Shown: in pieces, positions 76-13,860 of the stretch
Layout: every line of letters begins with the position of its first letter
Numbering within the stretch: the stretch's first letter is position 1
Assembly: GCA_002479255.1 (NCBI GenBank)
Contig: DLMJ01000042.1
Location: forward strand, 16,942-80,941
Reading direction: 5' to 3'
Origin: Candidatus Binatus soli
GTDB taxonomy: Bacteria > Desulfobacterota > Binatia > Binatales > Binataceae
DNA length: 64,000 nt
Notes under the pieces: generated by a model
The model's input: only the letters and a program-made list of their open reading frames with translations
Told to the model about the DNA's origin: nothing
The model's database searches: none
Translations under genes and position numbers: made by a program

Positions 76-627
76 CTAGTAGAACCACTTGCCGTTATCC
101 CAGCGGAAAATTTCCGTGGTGTGAGTATCGCTGATGGCCCTTGGCGACGCGTGCTTGGCTTCATCCCGGGACTTGCCGGCCAGGTAATAGATGAATTCTT
201 CGTAGGTGAGCTTTCCGATCGAGTAACCGTCTTTGGATTGATGCGATTCGCAGCCGGCGACCTTGCTATAAGCGGTATAGGTCGCGGTCTCGAAACCATT
301 TTTCAAATCGAATCTCAATTTCGACAGATTGTTCGTCTCGCGCTCGCGCAAATCCTGCTCCCAATGACGGCAAAAATCCGGGAACAGCGCCGCGGCCTTC
401 TTGAATTCGAGATCGCGCTTGAGCCGATCGGGCGTATATTTCGCAACCAGCGCCGTGACCTCTTGCCGCAGCGTCTTCTTCGCCGCCGGTGAAGCGGATG
501 CCTGCGGAACGGCTGCGCTTCGCGATGCCGAGGCGGGTGATGCCTGTGCAGCCGCTTGCGATTGGGCGCGCGCCGGCGTCGCCGCGAATAGCGCCGTGAT
601 TGCGAGCGCGGCGACGGCGGCTCTCAT
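76..627 (-). CDS. Hypothetical secreted protein (signal peptide MRAAVAALAITALFAATPARA); start taken at the internal ATG at 627
   Basis: ORF track 76..699; N-terminal signal-peptide-like segment starts at the Met at 627; no recognisable family. Confidence 0.55.
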   Translation of the reverse strand: MRAAVAALAITALFAATPARAQSQAAAQASPASASRSAAVPQASASPAAKKTLRQEVTALVAKYTPDRLKRDLEFKKAAALFPDFCRHWEQDLRERETNNLSKLRFDLKNGFETATYTAYSKVAGCESHQSKDGYSIGKLTYEEFIYYLAGKSRDEAKHASPRAISDTHTTEIFRWDNGKWFY

Positions 628-710
628 CTCGACTGTTCGAATAAACATCATAGCGATGTTTTCTATAGCAAAAATACGCACCAGCGTCAGCATGAACAAC
701 GGGCGCGGGA

Positions 711-750
711 GAGAAAAAAAATGGCCGCAGCCCCCGATGGGACTGCGGCC
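711..750 (-). terminator. Rho-independent terminator of OmpA-like copy 1 (8-bp GC stem ggccgcag/ctgcggcc, 12-nt loop, then T8 on minus strand)
   Basis: Stem 723-730/743-750 with A8 on plus (T8 on minus) immediately 3' of the gene end at 780. Confidence 0.65.
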
Positions 751-779: not shown

Positions 780-1457
780 TTATTGATTGGGCACCAGTTC
801 GACGCGGCGGTTCTGAGCGCGGCCCTCAGCAGTGTCGTTGGTGGCTACGAAGTCGGTCTTGCCGTACCCGTGCGGAATCAACTGACTCGACGGGATTCCG
901 GCTTTCACGAGGTAATCCACCACGGCGTCTGAACGTCGATCAGACAACTTCAAGTTGTATTCCTCGCTGCCGATCGCGTCGCAGTAGCCGTTGACGTTGA
1001 TCGTGACGTTCGGATTGGCCTTAAGTGTTGATGCGGCTTCATCCAGAACGGCGGCATCACCCGGGCGAATCTTCGACTTGTTGAAGTCGAAATGCACACC
1101 GCGTAACACCAGCTTCTGCCTGATCGGCGGCGGTGGTGGCGGTGGCGGAGGAGGAGGCGGCGGTGGAGGCGGTGGCGGAGGAGGCGGTGGCACCCGTTTC
1201 GGCGCCAGCAGGTAGCCGATCGTGCCGCCGATCAGAGCGCCCCCCACAACGCCCGTGGGGCATCCGATCTCATAACCCTTTGCGGAACCACTTACCCCGG
1301 CAGCAACTCCACACCCTATCCCTCCGCCGACGAGCGCCCCGCCGGCCGCTCCGTACGCGGTGTACTCTTTCTGCTCAGGCGTCCACGACGCGCACGACGA
1401 GACCGTCAAAAGAGCGACAGACGCCGCTACGGTAATCCAACTTTTCCATCTAAACAT
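780..1457 (-). CDS. OmpA-family lipoprotein, paralogue 1: lipobox LLTVSSC, Gly-zipper N-domain, ~24-Pro linker, OmpA C-terminal peptidoglycan-binding domain
   Basis: C-terminal NRRVE OmpA/MotB signature. Start chosen at ATG 1457 (MFRWKSW), which has GGGAGGG 6 nt upstream; the track start 1505 lacks an SD. Confidence 0.85.
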   Translation of the reverse strand: MFRWKSWITVAASVALLTVSSCASWTPEQKEYTAYGAAGGALVGGGIGCGVAAGVSGSAKGYEIGCPTGVVGGALIGGTIGYLLAPKRVPPPPPPPPPPPPPPPPPPPPPPIRQKLVLRGVHFDFNKSKIRPGDAAVLDEAASTLKANPNVTINVNGYCDAIGSEEYNLKLSDRRSDAVVDYLVKAGIPSSQLIPHGYGKTDFVATNDTAEGRAQNRRVELVPNQ

Positions 1458-1580
1458 GAGCATCCCTCCCTGGGTTCCAAGTAATTCCAGAATTAAACAC
1501 CGCAAATCCTGCCATTTTTGGGAAACGAAGTCTATTGAAGAGGCGAATCTTTCGCGCTCCGAGACTCGTAATGATGAGGA

Positions 1581-1622
1581 TTCGTTACATTGGTTACATA
1601 CTGGTTATATATTGGTTACATA
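1581..1622. promoter_or_regulatory. Four tandem ~11-bp direct repeats (core GTTACAT; ATGTAAC on the gene strand) upstream of OmpA-like copy 1; candidate response-regulator operator
   Basis: Units tcGTTACATtg / GTTACATactg / GTTATATattg / GTTACATaaag with 9/11/11-bp spacing. Confidence 0.4.
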
Positions 1623-1656
1623 AAGAAGCGGCCGCAACCCCCGATGGGACTGCGGC
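1618..1656 (-). terminator. Terminator-like hairpin of OmpA-like copy 2 (ggccgcaa/ctgcggcc, one mismatch) with a T-rich tail
   Basis: Paralogous copy of the 711-750 hairpin, 3' of the gene end at 1687. Confidence 0.5.
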
Positions 1657-1686
1657 CGATTGCGGACATTTCAATCTCGGCCCCGC

Positions 1687-2367
1687 TTATTGATTGGGCA
1701 CCAGTTCGACGCGACGGTTCTGAGCGCGGCCCTTAGCCGTGTCGTTGGTGGCGACGAAGTCGGTCTTGCCGTACCCGTGCGGAATTAACTGGCTCGACGG
1801 GATTCCGGCTTTCACGAGGTAATCCACCACGGCGTCTGAACGGCGGTCGGACAGCTTCAAGTTGTATTCCTCGCCCCCGATCGCATCGCAGTATCCGTTG
1901 ACGTTGATCGTCACGTTCCGATTGGCCTTAAGCGTTGATGCGGCTTCATCCAGAACGGCGGCATCACCCGGGCGGATCTTCGACTTGTTGAAGTCGAAAT
2001 GCGCACCGCGGATCACCAGCTTCTCCTTGACCGGAGGCGGTGGTGGCGGTGGCGGAGGAGGCGGCGGCGGTGGTGGAGGTGGCGGCGGTGGTGGAGGAGG
2101 CACCGGCTTCGGCGACAGCAAGTAGCCGTTCACGCCGCCGATCAGAGCGCCCATCACAACCCCCGTGATGCATCCGATCTTATAACTCTCTAAGGAACCA
2201 CTCGTTCCCGCCGCAATTCCGCACCCCAGCCCTCCGCCGACGAGCGCGCCGCCGGTCGCTCCGACTGCGGTGTACTCTCTCTGTTCGGGCGTCCACGACG
2301 CGCACGACGAGACCGTCAAAAGAGCGACAGACGCTGCCGCGCCAATCCAATTTTTCCATCTGATCAT
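1687..2367 (-). CDS. OmpA-family lipoprotein, paralogue 2 (Gly-zipper N-domain, ~25-Pro linker, OmpA C domain)
   Basis: Near-identical C-terminal domain to copy 1. Start at ATG 2367 (MIRWKNW) with AGGGG 5 nt upstream; the track start 2373 is a GTG. Confidence 0.85.
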   Translation of the reverse strand: MIRWKNWIGAAASVALLTVSSCASWTPEQREYTAVGATGGALVGGGLGCGIAAGTSGSLESYKIGCITGVVMGALIGGVNGYLLSPKPVPPPPPPPPPPPPPPPPPPPPPPPVKEKLVIRGAHFDFNKSKIRPGDAAVLDEAASTLKANRNVTINVNGYCDAIGGEEYNLKLSDRRSDAVVDYLVKAGIPSSQLIPHGYGKTDFVATNDTAKGRAQNRRVELVPNQ

Positions 2368-2490
2368 GGGCACCCCTGCCTGGTTTCAAGTAATTCTGGA
2401 ATTAAACACCGCAAATCCTGCCATTTTTGGGAACCGAGGTCTATTGAAGAGTCGAATCTTTCGCACTCCTGAGATTCGTAATGATGAGGA

Positions 2491-2521
2491 TTCGTTACAT
2501 TGGTTACATATTGGTTACATA
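2491..2521. promoter_or_regulatory. Three tandem GTTACAT direct repeats upstream of OmpA-like copy 2 (one 11-bp unit fewer than upstream of copy 1)
   Basis: ttcGTTACATtgGTTACATattgGTTACATa. Confidence 0.4.
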
Positions 2522-2557
2522 AAAGAAGCGGCCGCAGCCCCCGATGGGACTGCGGCC
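2517..2557 (-). terminator. Terminator hairpin of OmpA-like copy 3 (perfect ggccgcag/ctgcggcc stem, then GCTTCTTTTATG)
   Basis: Paralogous hairpin 2530-2537/2550-2557, 3' of the gene end at 2587. Confidence 0.5.
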
Positions 2558-2586
2558 GATTGCGGACGTTTCAGTCTCGGCCCGGC

Positions 2587-3303
2587 TTATTGATTGGGCG
2601 CCAGTTCGACGCGGCGGTTCTGAGCGCGGCCCTCAGCAGTGTCGTTGGTGGCTACGAAGTCGGTCTTGCCGTACCCGTGCGGAATCAACTGACTCGACGG
2701 GATTCCGGCTTTCACGAGGTAATCCACCACGGCGTCTGAACGGCGGTCGGACAGCTTCAAGTTGTATTCCTCGCTGCCGATCGCGTCGCAGTAGCCGTTG
2801 ACGTTGATCGTGACGTTCGGATTGGCCTTAAGCGTTGATGCGGCTTCATCCAGAACGGCGGCATCACCCGGGCGAATTTTCGACTTGTTGAAGTCGAAAT
2901 GCACACCGCGTAGCACCAGCTTCTCCTTGACCGGAGGCGGTGGTGGCGGTGGCGGAGGAGGCGGCGGGGGTGGAGGCGGCGGCGGTGGAGGAGGTGGCGG
3001 CGGAATTAGCGGATCGCAGATGTAGTGGCCTGCCAACGCGCCGAGTCCCGCGCCTATGACTGCTCCACCCACACCGGCATAAGCCCTGGCGTCTTTGTCG
3101 CTCTGGTGACGTCCCGCGACATTGTCAGCGATGACGATTCCTGAGGCTGCACCTACCCCTGCGCCAAGCAGTCCTCCGACGACCGCGCAGGTTCCCCACG
3201 AGCGTGGCTTCTGCAAATTTGCGCAACCGCCCAAACTGGAGGCGATTAGCGCCGCACCCGCGACACCGGCGACCGCATTTAAAAACCTTGATTTCAGTCT
3301 CAT
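2587..3303 (-). CDS. OmpA-family lipoprotein, paralogue 3 (different N-terminal domain with lipobox LGGC, ~26-Pro linker, same OmpA C domain)
   Basis: Start at ATG 3303 (MRLKSRF) with GAGGAGGAG 3-5 nt upstream; C-terminal domain about 95% identical to copies 1 and 2. Confidence 0.8.
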   Translation of the reverse strand: MRLKSRFLNAVAGVAGAALIASSLGGCANLQKPRSWGTCAVVGGLLGAGVGAASGIVIADNVAGRHQSDKDARAYAGVGGAVIGAGLGALAGHYICDPLIPPPPPPPPPPPPPPPPPPPPPPPPVKEKLVLRGVHFDFNKSKIRPGDAAVLDEAASTLKANPNVTINVNGYCDAIGSEEYNLKLSDRRSDAVVDYLVKAGIPSSQLIPHGYGKTDFVATNDTAEGRAQNRRVELAPNQ

Positions 3304-3753
3304 GAACTCCTCCTCACCCAAGTGCGTCTATGCGCGAAGCGAACCCCCTCACTTGCCCCTGAGCGTCAATCGTGCCAAACGGGAACTATCCCACCCAATT
3401 GACGGGAAAATATAGTTATATTTGTAACAAGAATGCAACATCTCCGGGGGGTGAAAAGGCGAGATTTTTTGCCCGGGCTGGCGAGCGTTCTCTCGGTGCA
3501 GCCCGGGCTTTCTGTGGATAAGTGGTGGTGAAATTGCCGCGATTTCCCGGTCAAGCTCGGCTCATATAACGCGTAACGCTCTGAATGCCCGCAAAGACGC
3601 TGTTCGGAGCGGTCGTTTGAGTCGAATTAATACTGGTTTGTGTCGCCCTTATGGTGGCCATGCTTCTGCGCATTGGTCTGTTGCCTGAAACCCGTCTGAC
3701 TTGAAGGCGAATTCCGCGCGAAGCGGAAACCCTGCTAGACTGTTTCGCTCATC

Positions 3754-6017
<2,264 letters not shown>

Positions 6018-6021
<4 letters not shown>

Positions 6022-7268
6022 TGCTGCGCGCGCTCGCGGAGTTGGCGAGCGGCGCCAGCGAAAAAATTACGCGCGATAAACGATCGCTCGCCGGCCGCCA
6101 TCGCCTCCAGTATCTCCGCGTTCAACCTGATCGCTTCATTGTCGGCCGGATTCGCATTCAGCGCGATCTCGGCGATCGCCAGCGCGCGCCTGAGTTGGCC
6201 CGCATCCTTGAGTGCGCGCGCCTTTGCGACGATCGCGTCGCGGCCGCAGATCGCGACGATGTCGCCGCCGCGTTCCATCCGCGTCGCCGGAAACATTTGC
6301 GACGGCTCGCCTGACCACCATCCGGCGTAACGCCGGATAACGTCGCGCACCACGAACGCGACGCATCCGTAAATCGGTTGCAGGTACGGCTTCGCCGCGA
6401 GATCGGGCGGGATTGAAATGTCAGCCTCAACTATGTCCACCGGCCACTCGCCTGCGTTGAGCCGCCGCACGACTTCATCATGGATGAATCGGATTGCCCG
6501 CGCCGTCTCGCGCAGCACTTCGTTGCATAGTTGCTCGCCGCGGTACGCGGGTCCGTGGCCCGGCAGAATGTAACGCGGGGTGCATTTCGCGATCGCCTCG
6601 AGCGTCTCCGCCCATTCAAGCGTGTAGCGCTGCACCTTGTTGGGATTGCCCGTGTTCGGCATCGACGAGACGATCAAATCGCCGACCATCGCCAGCCGCC
6701 GCGTCGGCATCCAGACCCAGGTCGCGTCATCCGTCTCGCCCATCGCGTGATGCAGCTCGACCGGCTCGCCCACCAGGTCGAGAAATTGTTCATCCCGATA
6801 AACCAGGTCGGGGTAGCTGAACGAGTTGCGCTCGAAGAGTCCCTCCGTGGCGAACGCGCCGCCGAACTGGAGTCGATTGATATGCCGCTGCCATCCGCGG
6901 GTAAGCGCGTAGCGTTTGAAGCGGGCGGCGACGTCCTCTTGCGCCCAGATTTTCGGCCGCGCATGCCCGCGCTTGATCGCGTCGGTAATGAACGCCTGGG
7001 CGCCGAACGCGTGATCGCCGTGGCCATGCGTGTATATGAGAAAGGCGAACGGCTCCTCGCTGACCTCGCGAATCGCGCGCACCGCCATCGCGCCCATCAG
7101 CCGCGAGCTGGTATCGACGACGATCATCTCACCGCGCCCGTATGCGAACGCGACGTTGGCGAAGCCGTGGAACATCGCGATTCCCGGCTCGAGCACTTCG
7201 AGCTGTCCCATCAGCGGGTCGAAGCCCGGCATGCCGTTCGATTGCTTGAGGCTGGGCGTGGAACTCAT
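6018..7268 (-). CDS. MBL-fold metallo-hydrolase (HGHGDH motif), alkyl-sulfatase-like N-terminal and dimerisation region
   Basis: [13 protein letters not shown] metallo-beta-lactamase motif; 416 aa. Confidence 0.8.
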
Positions 7269-7326: not shown

Positions 7327-9534
<2,208 letters not shown>

Positions 9535-10285: not shown

Positions 10286-10474
10286 ATGATGTGTCCCATC
10301 TGCAAAAAGCCCGCCGACCTGTCGCCCCGAAATCGCTTTCGCCCGTTCTGCTCCGAGCGATGCCAGATGATCGACCTCGGCACGTGGGCTTCGGGCGATT
10401 ACAAGGTGGAGGGCTCGCAGGCCGCCGACAACGAGCATCATGACGATCTGAAAAAGCGCAGGCTCCTCAATTGA
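10286..10474 (+). CDS. yacG: DNA gyrase inhibitor YacG (zinc-binding)
   Basis: CPICKK...RPFCSERCQMIDLGTWASG matches the YacG zinc-finger family. Confidence 0.75.
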   Translation: MMCPICKKPADLSPRNRFRPFCSERCQMIDLGTWASGDYKVEGSQAADNEHHDDLKKRRLLN

Positions 10475-11289
10475 CGCGTGACGCGCCGCCGCGGACTCAT
10501 CCGACTTCAGTGGTAGGCCCCGAGGTCGAGCTGGCCGCCGGCGTCGAGGTCGGTCCGTTGTGCCTCCTCGACGGAAAAATTCGTGTCGGTGCGCGCACCC
10601 GTTTAATCGGTCACGTCACGATTATGGGCATCACGGAACTCGGCGCCGACAACGTGCTTCATCCGGGCGCTGTTATCGGCGACGAGCCGCAGGATCTCAC
10701 GTACACGGGTGGCGCACGCTCGGTGAAAATCGGCGATCGAAACATCTTCCGCGAACATTCCACGCTCCATAGCGGCAGCGAGCGCGGCGACGTCACCATC
10801 ATGGGCGACGACAACTTCATGATGCAGAATGCGCACGTTGCGCACGATTGCCGAATCGGCAACTCGACCATCATCGCCGGCGGCGCGCTGCTCGCCGGCT
10901 GGGTCGAGCTCGGCGACCGCGCTCTCGTCTCCGGCAACTGCGTCGTGCATCAGTACACTCGCATCGGGCGGCTCGCGATGATGCGCGGTCTGTCGCGTAC
11001 CAGTCGCGACGTGCCGCCGTTCTGCATCATGGACGGCACCCATACCCTGCGCGGGATCAATGTCGTTGGACTCAAGCGCGCGGGAATTTCGTCGAAGTCG
11101 ATTCATGCGCTCCGGCGCGCCTTCACAACGCTCTTCGGCACGCGCCAGAATCTCAAACTTGCAATCGAGAGACTCGAGAAATCCGGCGATCTTGCGCCCG
11201 AAGTAATCGAGATGCTGGATTTCATCCGCGCCTCAAAACGAGGTGTCGCCTTCGGCCCCTTGGACCGGCACTCCGATTCCGACTCCTGA
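10471..11289 (+). CDS. lpxA: Acyl-ACP--UDP-N-acetylglucosamine O-acyltransferase
   Basis: Left-handed beta-helix hexapeptide repeats plus an LpxA-type C-terminal helical domain; TTG start overlapping the yacG stop (TTGA). Confidence 0.85.
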   Translation: MTRDAPPRTHPTSVVGPEVELAAGVEVGPLCLLDGKIRVGARTRLIGHVTIMGITELGADNVLHPGAVIGDEPQDLTYTGGARSVKIGDRNIFREHSTLHSGSERGDVTIMGDDNFMMQNAHVAHDCRIGNSTIIAGGALLAGWVELGDRALVSGNCVVHQYTRIGRLAMMRGLSRTSRDVPPFCIMDGTHTLRGINVVGLKRAGISSKSIHALRRAFTTLFGTRQNLKLAIERLEKSGDLAPEVIEMLDFIRASKRGVAFGPLDRHSDSDS

Positions 11290-11835: not shown

Positions 11836-13860
11836 ATGCCGGAACTTGGTAACCTCGCGCTCGCGATCGCGCTGATTCTGGCCGTCTATTCCATCGTCGC
11901 GAATATCTACGGCGCGCGCCGCAATGCGCCCGACTTCGTCGTCAGCGCGCGTCACGCGATATGGTCGATGTGCGCGATGGTCACGATTGCGGTCGTCGTG
12001 CTGTGGGTGGCCCTGCTGCGCAGCGACTTCTCGCTCGAGTACGTCGCCACATATTCCAGCACCACACTCCCGACCGCTTACAAAATCACCGCGCTATGGG
12101 CCGGGCAGCAGGGCTCGCTGATGCTCTGGACCTGGTTGCTGGCGATCTTCACGTCGGTAGCCGCCTTTCAGAATCGCCGCCGCAATCCCGACACCGCGCC
12201 CTACGCGCTGGCCGTGCTGGCCGGCGTCGCGATTTTCTTTCTGTTGATGCTGAATTTCGTCACCCGTCCGTTCGATCTGCTCGCGACGATTCCCGCCGAA
12301 GGTTCCGACCTCAATCCACTGTTGCAGAACTATTGGATGGCGATACATCCGCCGTCTCTCTACATCGGCTACGTCAGCGCATCTGTTCCGTTCGCATTCG
12401 GCGCCGCCGCGCTCATCACCGGCAAACTCGACGACGGATGGATTCGCTCGACGCGCCGATGGGCGATTTTTTCCTGGTTCTTTCTGACTCTCGGCAATCT
12501 GTTCGGCGCCCGCTGGGCCTACGAAGTTCTCGGCTGGGGCGGTTACTGGGCCTGGGACCCGGTCGAGAACGCAGCCTTCATGCCGTGGCTCGTGATGACC
12601 GCGTACCTGCATTCGGTGATGATCCAGGAACGCAAGGACATGCTGAAGATCTGGAACCTGTCGCTGATTGGACTCGCATTCGAACTCACGCTGTTCGGCA
12701 CTTTCATCACGCGCAGCGGCGTCATCTCGTCGGTGCATTCGTTCACGCAATCCGGCCTCGGTCCATACTTCCTCAGCTTCCTGGCAGCGGTGACGCTCGC
12801 CTACACCGCACTTTTGATTTACCGCTCGAAGCAATTGCGCAGTCCCGCCGAATTTGAGTCGTATCTGTCGCGCGAGGCCGCGTTTTTGTTCAACAACCTC
12901 ATACTGGTCGGGATCACGTTCGCCGTTTTCTGGGGCACCGTCTTTCCCGTGCTGTCGGAGGCGGTGCGTGGCGTGAAGATTACCGTCGGACCGCCGTTCT
13001 TCAATCGCGTCATCGCACCGCTGGCGCTCGGGCTGGTGTTCCTGACGGGCATCGGGCCGCTGATCGCGTGGCGGCGCACGACCACTGACAATCTTGTGCG
13101 CAGTTTCGCCGCGCCCGTCGCGATTGGCGTCGTGACCGGGATCATCGCCGCCGCTGCCGGTTTGCGCCAATGGTACGTGCTGACCGCCCTCTCTTTGGCC
13201 GCGTTCGTGATGGGCACCGTACTCGTCGAGTTTCGCCGCGGGATGAACGCGCGCCGCCACATGCTGGCCGAGCCGCCCGCCAAAGCGCTCGTCAATCTCG
13301 TTGCCAAGAACAACCGCCGCTACGGCGGCTACGTCATCCACGTCGGCGTGGTCGTCGCGTTCATCGGAATCGTCGGCTCGTCGTTCTTCCGCACCGAAGT
13401 AAAAAAGAGCGTGCACGCGGGCGACAGCTTTACGATCGGTTCGTACACTCTGCGCTTCCTGGGTCTCTCGGAGGTCGACACGCCTCATCTCGCGAGCGCG
13501 ACCGCACGCGTCGAGGTGCTGAGCGCTGACGGCCGCGAAATCACCGTGATGTCGCCGGCGAAGCTTTTCTTCATACGGGCGCAGCAGCCCGCGACCGAAG
13601 TCGCAATCCGCTCCACTCCCTTAAGCGACCTCTATGTTGTGCTCGCCGGAATCGACGACAGCGGTCAGACCGCGACCTTCGAAGTGTTTTTGACGCCCCT
13701 GGTCTTCTGGCTGTGGGCCGGCGGCCTGCTGATGGTGCTCGGCACTGTGATTGTGATGTGGCCCAACGTGCGCGAGCGCGCCGCAATCGCGACCGTGCTG
13801 AGCCGCTCGTCCACCGCCGCGCGCGAACTCAACGACGTGGCCGCTCCCGGGGGTGATTGA
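11836..13860 (+). CDS. ccmF: Cytochrome c-type biogenesis protein CcmF (heme lyase component)
   Basis: 674-aa polytopic membrane protein with WWD-family motifs typical of CcmF. Confidence 0.95.
   Translation: MPELGNLALAIALILAVYSIVANIYGARRNAPDFVVSARHAIWSMCAMVTIAVVVLWVALLRSDFSLEYVATYSSTTLPTAYKITALWAGQQGSLMLWTWLLAIFTSVAAFQNRRRNPDTAPYALAVLAGVAIFFLLMLNFVTRPFDLLATIPAEGSDLNPLLQNYWMAIHPPSLYIGYVSASVPFAFGAAALITGKLDDGWIRSTRRWAIFSWFFLTLGNLFGARWAYEVLGWGGYWAWDPVENAAFMPWLVMTAYLHSVMIQERKDMLKIWNLSLIGLAFELTLFGTFITRSGVISSVHSFTQSGLGPYFLSFLAAVTLAYTALLIYRSKQLRSPAEFESYLSREAAFLFNNLILVGITFAVFWGTVFPVLSEAVRGVKITVGPPFFNRVIAPLALGLVFLTGIGPLIAWRRTTTDNLVRSFAAPVAIGVVTGIIAAAAGLRQWYVLTALSLAAFVMGTVLVEFRRGMNARRHMLAEPPAKALVNLVAKNNRRYGGYVIHVGVVVAFIGIVGSSFFRTEVKKSVHAGDSFTIGSYTLRFLGLSEVDTPHLASATARVEVLSADGREITVMSPAKLFFIRAQQPATEVAIRSTPLSDLYVVLAGIDDSGQTATFEVFLTPLVFWLWAGGLLMVLGTVIVMWPNVRERAAIATVLSRSSTAARELNDVAAPGGD

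What the first reader, a model, noticed from the sequence alone, without database searches (positions are those of the whole stretch)
780..3303. Tandem triplication of OmpA-family lipoproteins with 24-26-residue polyproline linkers
Three same-strand paralogues share a lipobox, a Gly-zipper-type N-domain (copies 1 and 2; copy 3 has a different N-domain) and a near-identical OmpA peptidoglycan-binding C-domain. Each N- and C-domain pair is joined by an uninterrupted run of 24-26 prolines. That is far longer than the usual Pro/Ala-rich OmpA hinges. As a PPII helix such a run would be a rigid spacer of roughly 7-8 nm (inference), about the distance from the outer-membrane inner leaflet to the peptidoglycan. 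Proline runs of this length are strong ribosome-stalling sites, so expression should depend on EF-P. The proline tracts use mixed CCN codons rather than a pure repeat, which limits slippage. The 3' halves are much more similar than the 5' halves, which suggests gene conversion after duplication.
Basis: partly seen in the sequence, partly recalled or inferred. Interest (0 to 1): 0.6.

Follow-up and report, generated by a model that had tools for sequence, protein, structure and literature searches.

The report
Polyproline-rod OmpA lipoproteins of Binataceae
Three neighbouring genes of an uncultured soil bacterium (family Binataceae) encode outer-membrane lipoproteins whose peptidoglycan-binding domain hangs on an unbroken rod of 22-24 prolines, and the length of this spacer is held almost constant across the family, as if it were a ruler for the membrane-to-wall distance.

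Summary
Three minus-strand genes (780-1457, 1687-2367, 2587-3303) each encode a lipobox signal peptide, a two-helix Gly-zipper-like N-domain, an uninterrupted Pro run and an OmpA-like peptidoglycan-binding domain. The runs are 22, 23 and 24 prolines, not 24-26.

The organism is a Binataceae (Binatota) bacterium. The linker is a family-wide trait, not an artefact or an oddity of this genome. In 70 related loci, about 140 such genes carry runs of mostly 15-26 Pro (mode 21-22). The whole spacer is 30.7±1.3 residues (type A) and 29.8±1.0 (type B).

The array sits in a conserved slot between uvrB and a secreted protein of no known family, with 1-5 copies. The paralogues are old: their N-domains have orthologues in other species. 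It is not a recent triplication. The 3' halves (part of the Pro tract, the C-domain and the terminator) are homogenised by gene conversion.

CCC codons are almost excluded from the tracts (2.7% against 30% background).

The closest known families are the YiaD and PA1041 Gly-zipper/OmpA lipoproteins, but scores fall below both family cut-offs. My best reading is a non-covalent OM-peptidoglycan tether with a semi-rigid PPII spacer of selected length. EF-P dependence was not tested. This is a new variant of a known kind, of moderate interest.

The parts
780..1457 (-). Copy 1 (type A) lipoprotein gene: signal peptide 1395-1457, Cys+Gly-zipper hairpin N-domain 1191-1394, OmpA-like domain 783-1124, stop 780-782
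1125..1190 (-). Copy 1 polyproline tract, 22 uninterrupted Pro, mixed CCG/CCA/CCT codons
1687..2367 (-). Copy 2 (type A) lipoprotein gene: signal peptide 2305-2367, N-domain 2101-2304, OmpA-like domain 1690-2031, stop 1687-1689
2032..2100 (-). Copy 2 polyproline tract, 23 uninterrupted Pro
2587..3303 (-). Copy 3 (type B) lipoprotein gene: signal peptide 3226-3303, N-domain 3004-3225, OmpA-like domain 2590-2931, stop 2587-2589
2932..3003 (-). Copy 3 polyproline tract, 24 uninterrupted Pro (the only CCC codon of the three tracts is here)
723..750 (-). Intrinsic-terminator-like hairpin (12-bp stem, T-run) after copy 1; part of the homogenised 3' unit
1629..1658 (-). Terminator-like hairpin (13-bp stem) after copy 2
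2529..2558 (-). Terminator-like hairpin (13-bp stem) after copy 3
1458..1686 (-). Intergenic/upstream region of copy 1, 92% identical to that of copy 2 (2368-2586); contains TGTAACCAAT-type direct repeats
3754..6021 (+). uvrB, divergent conserved neighbour that marks the syntenic slot of the array
76..699 (-). Conserved downstream neighbour: secreted protein (up to 207 aa; 188 aa from the start scanned, 642) with no Pfam or NCBIfam family; marks the other edge of the slot

Best explanation
These are three members of a Binataceae-wide family of outer-membrane lipoproteins that tether the outer membrane non-covalently to peptidoglycan.

Shown:
- Each has a lipoprotein signal peptide and lipobox, with Ala at +2.
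- Each has an N-domain predicted as a Gly/Ala-rich helical hairpin carrying two Cys.
- Each has a C-terminal OmpA-like domain with the conserved Asp/Arg pair that binds the diaminopimelate of the peptidoglycan stem peptide in OmpA-type domains.
- The 22-24 Pro run is unbroken, and the total spacer length is held at about 30±1 residues in two old paralogue types across dozens of species.

Inferred:
- The Pro run adopts a polyproline-II helix of about 6.8-7.4 nm. With its flanks the spacer could reach up to about 9 nm.
- The rod holds the peptidoglycan-binding domain at a set depth, so the protein acts both as tether and as spacer. In this it would be a functional analogue of the about 7.5-nm Lpp brace of E. 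coli.

The genes are separate transcription units, each with its own terminator, in a copy-number-variable array. Gene conversion keeps the 3' part of the Pro tract, the binding domain and the terminator alike between copies, and the Pro-coding tract serves as the junction to divergent N-domains. Near-exclusion of CCC keeps the tract free of C-runs longer than 5 nt. This should limit replication slippage and CCC-C +1 ribosomal frameshifting. Translation presumably needs EF-P.
For: Architecture:
- Pfam OmpA scores 85 bits against a cut-off of 27.2.
- The best NCBIfam models are YiaD_Gzip_OmpA and the PA1041 peptidoglycan-binding anchor lipoprotein; the PA1041 alignment covers nearly the full length of copies 1 and 2.
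- AlphaFold2 of copy 2 gives a signal-peptide helix, a helical hairpin at 27-55/59-84, a coil at 85-118 and an alpha/beta domain, mean pLDDT 77.
- Foldseek matches Pal, OprF, YiaD and OmpA binding domains with target TM-scores mostly 0.6-0.9, up to 0.89.
- The alignment to YiaD chain 2K1S shows GYCDAIG...LSDRRSDAV against GYTDSTG...LSQQRADSV. D161 and R175/R176 are invariant in 39 homologues.
- A lipobox-like pattern is present in 134 of 144 genes; the +2 residue is Ala in 110 and Ser in 18, never Asp.
- lpxA lies in the window at 10471-11289, so the organism makes lipid A and has an outer membrane.

Length constraint:
- The spacer is 30.7±1.3 residues in type A (n=62) and 29.8±1.0 in type B (n=72), with 22.1 and 22.2 Pro, although the two N-domain types share only about 25% identity.
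- Pro runs are specific to this family.
- They are present and in frame in MAGs from many independent studies and assemblers.

Codons: CCC makes up 2.7% of 2901 linker Pro codons against 30% in long ORFs of the window, and the longest C-run is 5 nt.

Conversion.

Literature scale: Lpp is about 7.5 nm, the OM-PG distance is 8.1-8.3 nm, and YiaD is proposed as an OM-PG linker (PMC8824477).
Against: - No experiment and no localisation data exist, and the organisms are uncultured.
- The Gly-zipper assignment is below Pfam thresholds for the window copies (E 0.1-10). It rests on precomputed hits in homologues, on the GxxxG pattern and on the predicted hairpin.
- From my own knowledge of FRET and NMR work, polyproline of about 20 residues is less rigid than an ideal PPII rod because of cis-prolyl kinks. 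'Ruler' may therefore overstate stiffness.
- The uninterrupted run itself varies from 15 to 26, and some family members interrupt it with A, L or S. Purity of the run is therefore not strictly required.
- Gene conversion could contribute to length uniformity within a genome; there is weak within-locus co-variation, p about 0.03.
- The structure tool reports no coordinates, so no end-to-end distance was measured.
Confidence: 0.55

Rival explanations
1. It is an ordinary flexible hinge taken to a compositional extreme. The Pro run is simply the Pro/Ala-rich OmpA-type hinge, purified by slippage and gene conversion in this lineage. It acts as a loose leash, and its exact length and stiffness do not matter.
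For: More distant relatives (40-60% identity), both lipoproteins and beta-barrel OmpA proteins, carry heterogeneous P/A-rich hinges such as PPPPPPPPVAQAPPPPPPP. Some family members interrupt the run. The uninterrupted run varies from 15 to 26. Conversion tracts include the 3' part of the Pro tract.
Against: The total spacer length has an SD of only 1.0-1.3 residues over 134 genes of two anciently diverged paralogue types in dozens of species. A slippage-prone tract of no functional importance would be expected to drift much more. CCC avoidance indicates selection acting on the tract itself.
Confidence: 0.25
2. It is an inner-membrane-anchored lipoprotein. The Pro rod spans from the cytoplasmic membrane up to the peptidoglycan, like a MotB/ExbD-type stator anchor without the motor, rather than down from the outer membrane.
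For: The depositors' name for PDB chain 2K1S is 'Inner membrane lipoprotein YiaD'. Lipoprotein sorting rules are unknown in Binatota. From my own knowledge, the IM-PG distance is of a similar order.
Against: The +2 residue is Ala or Ser in 128 of 134 genes and never Asp, which is the E. coli inner-membrane retention signal (the rule is established for Enterobacteria only). Recent work treats YiaD and the other glycine-zipper lipoproteins as outer-membrane proteins (PMC8824477; bioRxiv 10.64898/2025.12.22.696046).
Confidence: 0.1
3. The Pro run is mainly a translational device. A very strong EF-P-dependent stall would throttle or time synthesis, for example to couple expression to growth state or to aid Sec targeting and lipidation. 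The spacer role would be secondary.
For: Consecutive prolines stall ribosomes, and a 20-Pro tract is described as artificially long in engineered constructs (PMC12856214). The tract lies in an inter-domain position, where pauses are thought to aid folding (same review).
Against: A stall needs only 3-5 prolines, so it does not explain about 22 prolines or a conserved 30-residue spacer. The slow codon CCT is enriched (24% against 6%) while CCC is excluded, so the codon pattern fits neither pure speed optimisation nor pure slowing. It is not exclusive with the main explanation.
Confidence: 0.07
4. The proline tracts are assembly or sequencing artefacts of a collapsed repeat.
For: Low-complexity GC-rich tracts are error-prone. 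A few related copies are frameshifted or truncated at the tract (L022, L030, L037). Most metagenome matches to (CCN)20 are poly-C runs, readable as Pro in all three frames and often at contig ends.
Against: About 140 genes in 70 loci, from many independent projects and assemblers, keep the reading frame through the tract into a conserved domain, with mixed codons and a narrow length range.
Confidence: 0.01

Closest known systems
E. coli YiaD and the NCBIfam family NF053611 (YiaD family glycine zipper/OmpA-like lipoprotein)
   Same: Lipobox, glycine-zipper N-domain and C-terminal OmpA-like peptidoglycan-binding domain. It is the best NCBIfam model for copies 1 and 2 (119-127 bits). The YiaD C-domain (2K1S) is among the best PDB matches by sequence and by fold. 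YiaD is proposed to mediate OM-PG linkage (PMC8824477).
   Different: Scores are below the family cut-off of 175 bits. From my own knowledge, YiaD has no polyproline rod between its domains. YiaD is a single gene, not a tandem array.
PA1041 family peptidoglycan-binding anchor lipoprotein (NCBIfam NF053612)
   Same: It is the best model for copy 3 (138 bits) and aligns almost end to end with copies 1 and 2 (residues 20-221 on profile positions 16-233 of 236). The overall architecture is the same: anchor plus OmpA-like domain.
   Different: Scores are far below the cut-off of 250 bits. I did not examine the linker composition of true PA1041 members.
Classical OmpA / OprF-type porins with Pro/Ala-rich hinges
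   Same: The same C-terminal domain, attached to an outer-membrane anchor by a Pro-rich hinge. One metagenomic beta-barrel OmpA (L146) even has a 28-Pro run, so pure polyPro hinges have arisen more than once.
   Different: The anchor is an 8-stranded barrel, not a lipid plus helical hairpin. From my own knowledge, the usual hinges are short and mixed, such as APAPAP in E. coli OmpA.
Pal (peptidoglycan-associated lipoprotein)
   Same: A lipoprotein with an OmpA-like domain. The fold match has target TM-scores up to 0.87-0.89.
   Different: The TIGR02802 score is 76-83 against a cut-off of 125. There is no tol-pal gene context; the neighbours are uvrB and an uncharacterised secreted protein. From my own knowledge, the Pal linker is not polyproline.
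Braun's lipoprotein Lpp (functional analogy only)
   Same: An outer-membrane lipoprotein whose rod-like part, about 7.5 nm, sets the OM-PG distance (PMC8824477). The calculated PPII length of the Pro run, 6.8-7.4 nm, is of the same order.
   Different: There is no homology. Lpp is a trimeric coiled coil linked covalently to peptidoglycan through its C-terminal Lys. Here the rod is a single PPII helix, the attachment would be non-covalent through an OmpA-like domain, and the C-terminus reads PNQ.
TonB proline-rich periplasmic spacer
   Same: A Pro-rich, PPII-type periplasm-spanning segment (PMC5413942 and PMC12204202 were listed but not read).
   Different: From my own knowledge, TonB is inner-membrane anchored and energy-transducing, and its spacer is made of Glu-Pro/Lys-Pro repeats, not a homopolymer.

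Membership tests
OmpA-like peptidoglycan-binding domain (Pfam PF00691) | Profile score above the Pfam gathering threshold | tested here: met
   84.7-85.4 bits against 27.2 in all three copies
OmpA-like peptidoglycan-binding domain (Pfam PF00691) | Alpha/beta fold of the Pal/OmpA C-domain | tested here: met
   The AlphaFold2 model matches Pal, OprF, YiaD and OmpA domains: Foldseek E about 1e-9, target TM-scores mostly 0.6-0.9 (up to 0.89), rmsd mostly 1.6-3 Å
OmpA-like peptidoglycan-binding domain (Pfam PF00691) | Conserved Asp and Arg that bind diaminopimelate (the E. coli OmpA Asp/Arg pair around residues 241-256, AbOmpA D271/R286) | tested here: met
   GYCDAIG and LSDRRSDAV align with GYTDSTG and LSQQRADSV of YiaD. 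D161, R175 and R176 are invariant in 39 homologues. The residue roles come from established knowledge. Binding itself was not tested.
YiaD family glycine zipper/OmpA-like lipoprotein (NCBIfam NF053611) | Whole-protein score at or above the curated cut-off (175 bits) | tested here: not met
   126.9, 118.9 and 117.7 bits
YiaD family glycine zipper/OmpA-like lipoprotein (NCBIfam NF053611) | Architecture: lipobox, then glycine zipper, then OmpA-like domain | tested here: met
   Lipobox. GxxxG-rich helical hairpin. OmpA domain. The additional 22-24 Pro insert is the difference.
PA1041 family peptidoglycan-binding anchor lipoprotein (NCBIfam NF053612) | Whole-protein score at or above the curated cut-off (250 bits) | tested here: not met
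   116.5, 115.0 and 137.9 bits
Pal (TIGR02802) | Score at or above the cut-off (125.35 bits) and tol-pal operon context | tested here: not met
   76.5-82.7 bits. The neighbours are uvrB and an uncharacterised secreted protein.
Glycine-zipper domains (Pfam PF13441, PF13488, PF13436, PF05433) | Profile score above the gathering threshold on the N-domain | tested here: not met
   Best E-values are 0.12-0.22 (copy 3) and 1.3-9.9 (copies 1 and 2), all below the cut-offs. Many close homologues carry precomputed PF13441 or PF13488 hits, so this is a resemblance at family level only.
Bacterial lipoproteins (SPase II substrates) | N-terminal signal peptide ending in a lipobox [LVI][ASTVIG][GAS]C | tested here: met
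   LTVSS|C (copies 1 and 2) and SLGG|C (copy 3). A PROSITE-like pattern is found in 134 of 144 family genes. Lipidation itself is not testable here.
Outer-membrane (Lol-sorted) lipoproteins | Absence of the inner-membrane retention signal (Asp at +2 in Enterobacteria) | tested here: inconclusive
   The +2 residue is Ala in 110, Ser in 18, never Asp, but the sorting rule has not been established for Binatota.
Braun lipoprotein Lpp | Trimeric coiled coil with a C-terminal Lys for covalent attachment to peptidoglycan | tested here: not met
   No coiled-coil segment is predicted, and the C-terminus reads ...ELVPNQ. The resemblance is a functional analogy only.
EF-P-dependent polyproline proteins | Translation requires EF-P; efp and its modification genes are present | not testable with these tools
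From established knowledge, EF-P is near-universal in bacteria.

The most novel reading that the evidence does not exclude
In Binataceae, which presumably lack Lpp, these YiaD/PA1041-like lipoproteins are the main brace that sets outer-membrane-to-peptidoglycan spacing. A single polyproline-II rod of about 22 residues, inside a spacer fixed at about 30 residues, would act as a molecular ruler under stabilising selection. The multi-copy array would supply the dosage. They would also be natural, abundant bacterial proteins with 20 or more consecutive prolines, which implies an unusually capable EF-P/tRNA-Pro system in this lineage.
Probability: 0.3. Interest if true: 0.65.

Novelty: new variant of a known kind. 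Interest (0 to 1): 0.5.

Why it matters
What sets the distance between the outer membrane and the cell wall is well studied only for E. coli Lpp. There, the question of brace versus tether is still argued, and OmpA, Pal and YiaD are seen as flexible tethers (PMC8824477). A family in which a non-covalent OmpA-type tether carries a stiff homopolymeric rod of tightly conserved length would be a natural second solution to the same problem. It would also give an easily engineered length series for testing spacing rules.

For the translation field, 22-26 consecutive prolines in every member of a multi-copy envelope protein family is well beyond what is treated as natural in model bacteria. In B. subtilis the longest natural run is 4, and a 20-Pro tract is called artificially long (PMC12856214).

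The near-exclusion of CCC gives a clear sequence signature of how a genome keeps such a tract stable. The locus is also a clear case of mosaic concerted evolution, with a low-complexity coding tract as the junction.

Tried and rejected
1. Protein databases for the distribution of linker lengths. Among 270 hits no Pro run exceeds 11, while 137 of the 146 genome-derived ORFs do. None of the 137 ORFs with runs of 12 or more is identical to a hit, against 2 of 7 ORFs with shorter runs. Both collections appear to exclude proteins with long homopolymer runs, so they were used only qualitatively.

2. Metagenome scan for (CCN)20. It yielded one independent OmpA porin with a 28-Pro hinge (L146) and a few large secreted proteins with P24-P32 linkers, but no usable phylogenetic distribution.

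3. efp search by tblastn with an E. coli EF-P sequence written from memory. No hit in the window or the loci, which is uninformative given the small sample.

4. Literature. I found no paper on polyproline OmpA-family linkers or on the Binatota envelope. The Binatota genomics paper does not mention OmpA, proline, outer membrane or peptidoglycan.

5. A sigma-70 promoter scan found nothing on the coding strand.

6. TGTAAC direct repeats upstream of copies 1 and 2 are conserved only in the closest relatives and were not pursued.

7. Anti-repeat ordering of codons. Adjacent identical codons make up 34.3% against 35.6% expected, so there is no ordering signal beyond CCC avoidance.

8. Co-variation of spacer length within genomes is weak (p about 0.03).

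9. Pal membership, Lpp homology and the artefact explanation were rejected (see the membership test and the rivals).


Full report
**What is there**

The region holds three ORFs on the minus strand, at 780-1505, 1687-2373 and 2587-3321. From the Shine-Dalgarno context and the signal peptides, the likely starts are 1457 (MFRWK...), 2367 (MIRWK...) and 3303 (MRLKS...). Each product has four parts.
- A lipoprotein signal peptide ending in a lipobox: LTVSS|C in copies 1 and 2, SLGG|C in copy 3.
- A 68-74-residue Gly/Ala-rich N-domain.
- An uninterrupted proline run.
- A 114-residue domain that scores 85 bits against Pfam OmpA, PF00691, whose cut-off is 27.2.

The proline runs are 22 (1125-1190), 23 (2032-2100) and 24 (2932-3003) residues. 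These are the only runs of five or more prolines in any ORF of 80 aa or more in the whole 64-kb window. Each gene is followed by a nearly identical hairpin with a 12-13-bp stem and a T-run. The three genes are therefore separate transcription units.

**Whose genome**

A scan of one genome per species found 70 related loci. Nearly all are from MAGs labelled Candidatus Binataceae, Binatus or 'uncultured delta proteobacterium'; a few carry other labels (Acidiferrales, Terriglobales, a Thermoplasmata archaeon). The best is 92% identical to copy 2. An lpxA homologue at 10471-11289 indicates a lipid-A-containing outer membrane.

**The linker is a family trait**

In the 70 loci I found 146 OmpA-type ORFs, of which 137 have an uninterrupted Pro run of 12 or more. 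The mode is 21-22 and the maximum 26. A stricter extraction, which also includes the three window genes, gave 144 genes. They come from many independent projects and assemblers and always keep the frame into the conserved domain, which excludes an assembly artefact. All runs of seven or more prolines in 846 kb of this DNA lie in this gene family. The five exceptions are frameshifted or truncated copies of the same family.

The two large protein collections show no run above 11 among 270 hits. None of the genome ORFs with longer runs is identical to any hit of the first search. I conclude that those collections exclude long homopolymer runs and cannot be used for this question.

What this shows is that the oddity belongs to the family rather than to this genome.

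**Two paralogue types and a conserved slot**

The N-domains fall into two types.
- Type A (copies 1 and 2): CASWTPEQ...GY[LF]LAPKP.
- Type B (copy 3): CAN...WGTC...HYICDP[IL]I.

Both have two GxxxG-rich segments and two Cys. Pfam glycine-zipper models hit only below threshold, and hit copy 3 better than copies 1 and 2. Many close homologues carry precomputed PF13441 or PF13488 hits. AlphaFold2 predicts for copy 2 a helical hairpin (27-55, 59-84), a coil through the linker (85-118) and an alpha/beta C-domain, with mean pLDDT 77. Foldseek matches the C-domain to Pal, OprF, YiaD and OmpA binding domains, with target TM-scores mostly 0.6-0.9 and up to 0.89.

The array lies between a divergent uvrB (1079 bits) and a secreted protein of about 190-207 aa without any family. 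This slot is conserved in most loci and holds 1 to 5 copies in varying A/B order. Further lone type B copies, in loci without these two neighbours, lie elsewhere in some of the same genomes. The window has the order B-A-A.

**Mosaic evolution**

DNA identity by segment is given below.

| Segment | c1-c2 | c1-c3 | c2-c3 |
|---|---|---|---|
| Upstream intergenic | 92% | 42% | 43% |
| N-domain | 84% | 48% | 46% |
| Pro tract | 88% | 91% | 94% |
| C-domain | 93% | 97% | 95% |
| 3' flank with terminator | 91% | 98% | 93% |

In the C-domain plus flank, 19 informative sites group c1 with c3, 9 group c2 with c3, and only 2 group c1 with c2. This is the opposite of the N-domain relationship (binomial p = 2e-4 for 19 against 2).

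Across all genes, the N-domain's nearest relative lies in another genome in 107 of 111 cases, so the paralogues are old. The nearest C-domain DNA lies in the same locus in 38 of 111 cases, including all three window copies. Within-locus A-B pairs are 85.8% identical in the C-domain. Between loci the figure is 81.2% for A-B pairs and 82.1% for pairs of the same type.

This is concerted evolution of the 3' half, with the boundary inside the Pro-coding tract. It is not a recent triplication.

**Signs of selection on the tract**

The spacer was measured from the last conserved N-domain motif to the first strand of the OmpA-like domain.

| Type | n | Spacer length (residues) | Pro count |
|---|---|---|---|
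| A | 62 | 30.7 ± 1.3 | 22.1 |
| B | 72 | 29.8 ± 1.0 | 22.2 |

For a low-complexity tract in two paralogue types whose N-domains share about 25% identity, this is a narrow distribution. It argues for stabilising selection on length. The weak co-variation within genomes (p about 0.03) cannot explain the constancy between species.

Codon use is also shaped. CCC is 2.7% of 2901 linker Pro codons (1 of 69 in the window) against 30% in long ORFs of the window. CCT and CCA are enriched, and no C-run exceeds 5 nt. This fits avoidance of mononucleotide runs (replication slippage) and of CCC-C +1 ribosomal frameshift sites (review PMC12856214). It does not fit simple speed optimisation, because the slow codon CCT is enriched. 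The order of the codons is close to random.

**How it most likely works**

Shown: the domain architecture, the conserved Asp/Arg pair of the diaminopimelate-binding site, the lipobox with Ala or Ser at +2, and the length constraint.

[quoted passage not shown] The Pro run forms a polyproline-II helix of 22-24 × 0.31 nm = 6.8-7.4 nm, which holds the binding domain at the level of the peptidoglycan.

For scale, Lpp is about 7.5 nm long and the simulated distance from the inner leaflet of the outer membrane to the peptidoglycan is 8.1-8.3 nm in E. coli. YiaD has been proposed to mediate OM-PG linkage (PMC8824477). The protein would thus combine a non-covalent tether with a semi-rigid spacer.

EF-P dependence is expected from established knowledge but was not tested. 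No efp lies in the sequence I hold.

**Rivals**

- A merely flexible hinge taken to a compositional extreme. Heterogeneous P/A-rich hinges in distant relatives support it. The length constraint argues against it.
- An inner-membrane anchor. This cannot be excluded, because the sorting rules of Binatota are unknown.
- A primarily translational device. This does not explain about 22 residues or the fixed spacer.
- An artefact. This is excluded.

**Comparison with known families**

The best curated models are NCBIfam YiaD_Gzip_OmpA (118-127 bits, cut-off 175) and the PA1041 peptidoglycan-binding anchor lipoprotein (115-138 bits, cut-off 250). Pal scores 76-83 bits against a cut-off of 125. By these criteria the genes are relatives of these families but not members.

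Pro-rich hinges are usual in the OmpA family. A metagenomic beta-barrel OmpA (L146) even has a 28-Pro hinge, so pure polyPro hinges have arisen more than once. I found no paper describing such linkers or the Binatota envelope.

**Verdict**

This is a real, family-wide feature, a new variant of a known kind, and of moderate interest. It would interest specialists in the cell envelope (brace versus tether, and a natural polyproline ruler) and in translation (multi-copy natural genes with 22-26 consecutive prolines). The mechanism remains inferred, and the organisms are uncultured.

Noticed in passing
protein collections used: Among 270 homologues returned, the longest Pro run is exactly 11, while 137 of 146 genome-derived ORFs of the same family have runs of 12-26. 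None of the long-run ORFs is identical to a hit. Both collections appear to exclude proteins with long homopolymer runs, which hides this feature from protein-level searches.
   Followed up: yes
window 1585-1625 and 2495-2530 (minus strand, upstream of copies 1 and 2): Direct repeats of TGTAACCAAT-type units (ATGTAACCAATATGTAACCAATGTAACGAAT), about 10-11 bp apart, lie just after the preceding terminator. They are conserved only in the closest relatives (L002, L003, L009). They could be a regulator binding site.
   Followed up: partly
window 76-699 (minus strand): A secreted protein of up to 207 aa (188 aa from the start used for the scans, 642) has no Pfam or NCBIfam family. It is the conserved downstream neighbour of the array in most related loci (55-91% identity). 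A functional link to the lipoproteins is possible but untested.
   Followed up: partly
L146 3014-4240 (minus strand): A metagenomic beta-barrel OmpA-type protein (ORF of 408 aa, strand signature ...GLRYSF) carries a 28-Pro hinge before its OmpA-like domain. Its codons are mostly CCG/CCT, with 2 CCC. This is an independent occurrence of a pure polyproline hinge.
   Followed up: partly
L030, L022, L037 (OmpA-type ORFs in the array): Copies of the same family lose the reading frame or break off at or just after the Pro tract, for example a 21-Pro run followed by SSRSWCC... in L030. They could be sequencing indels, pseudogenes or on/off switching.
   Followed up: no
L042, L044, L046, L047, L049, L051, L053-L062: Lone type B copies in loci without uvrB or the secreted-protein neighbour. 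Several lie elsewhere on the same contig or in the same MAG as an array locus (for example L047 with L014, L058 with L036). Binataceae genomes therefore carry more polyproline OmpA lipoproteins than the array alone.
   Followed up: partly
L098, L124, L143, L180, L182, L110: Long ORFs of 221-994 aa from metagenomes have P21-P35 runs between flanking non-repetitive sequence. Long polyproline linkers therefore exist in other long ORFs, possibly secreted or multidomain proteins; neither was checked.
   Followed up: no
L071-L190 in general: Most matches to (CCN)20 in the metagenome collection are readable as Pro in all three frames (poly-C), often at contig ends. They are probably sequencing or assembly artefacts, or eukaryotic low-complexity DNA.
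   Followed up: partly
window 10471-11289 (+): An LpxA-type UDP-GlcNAc O-acyltransferase (Pfam Acetyltransf_11 + Hexapep). This indicates lipid A synthesis and hence a true outer membrane.
   Followed up: partly
window 6018-7268 (-), 7327-9534 (+), 11836-13860 (+): An alkyl-sulfatase-like metallo-beta-lactamase-fold protein, a GlgB glycogen branching enzyme and a CcmF cytochrome c maturation protein. They are ordinary neighbours with no evident link to the array.
   Followed up: no
L017, L034, L046: Contigs carrying typical Binataceae-type array genes are filed under Acidiferrales, Terriglobales and a Thermoplasmata archaeon MAG. These are probably binning contamination.
   Followed up: no
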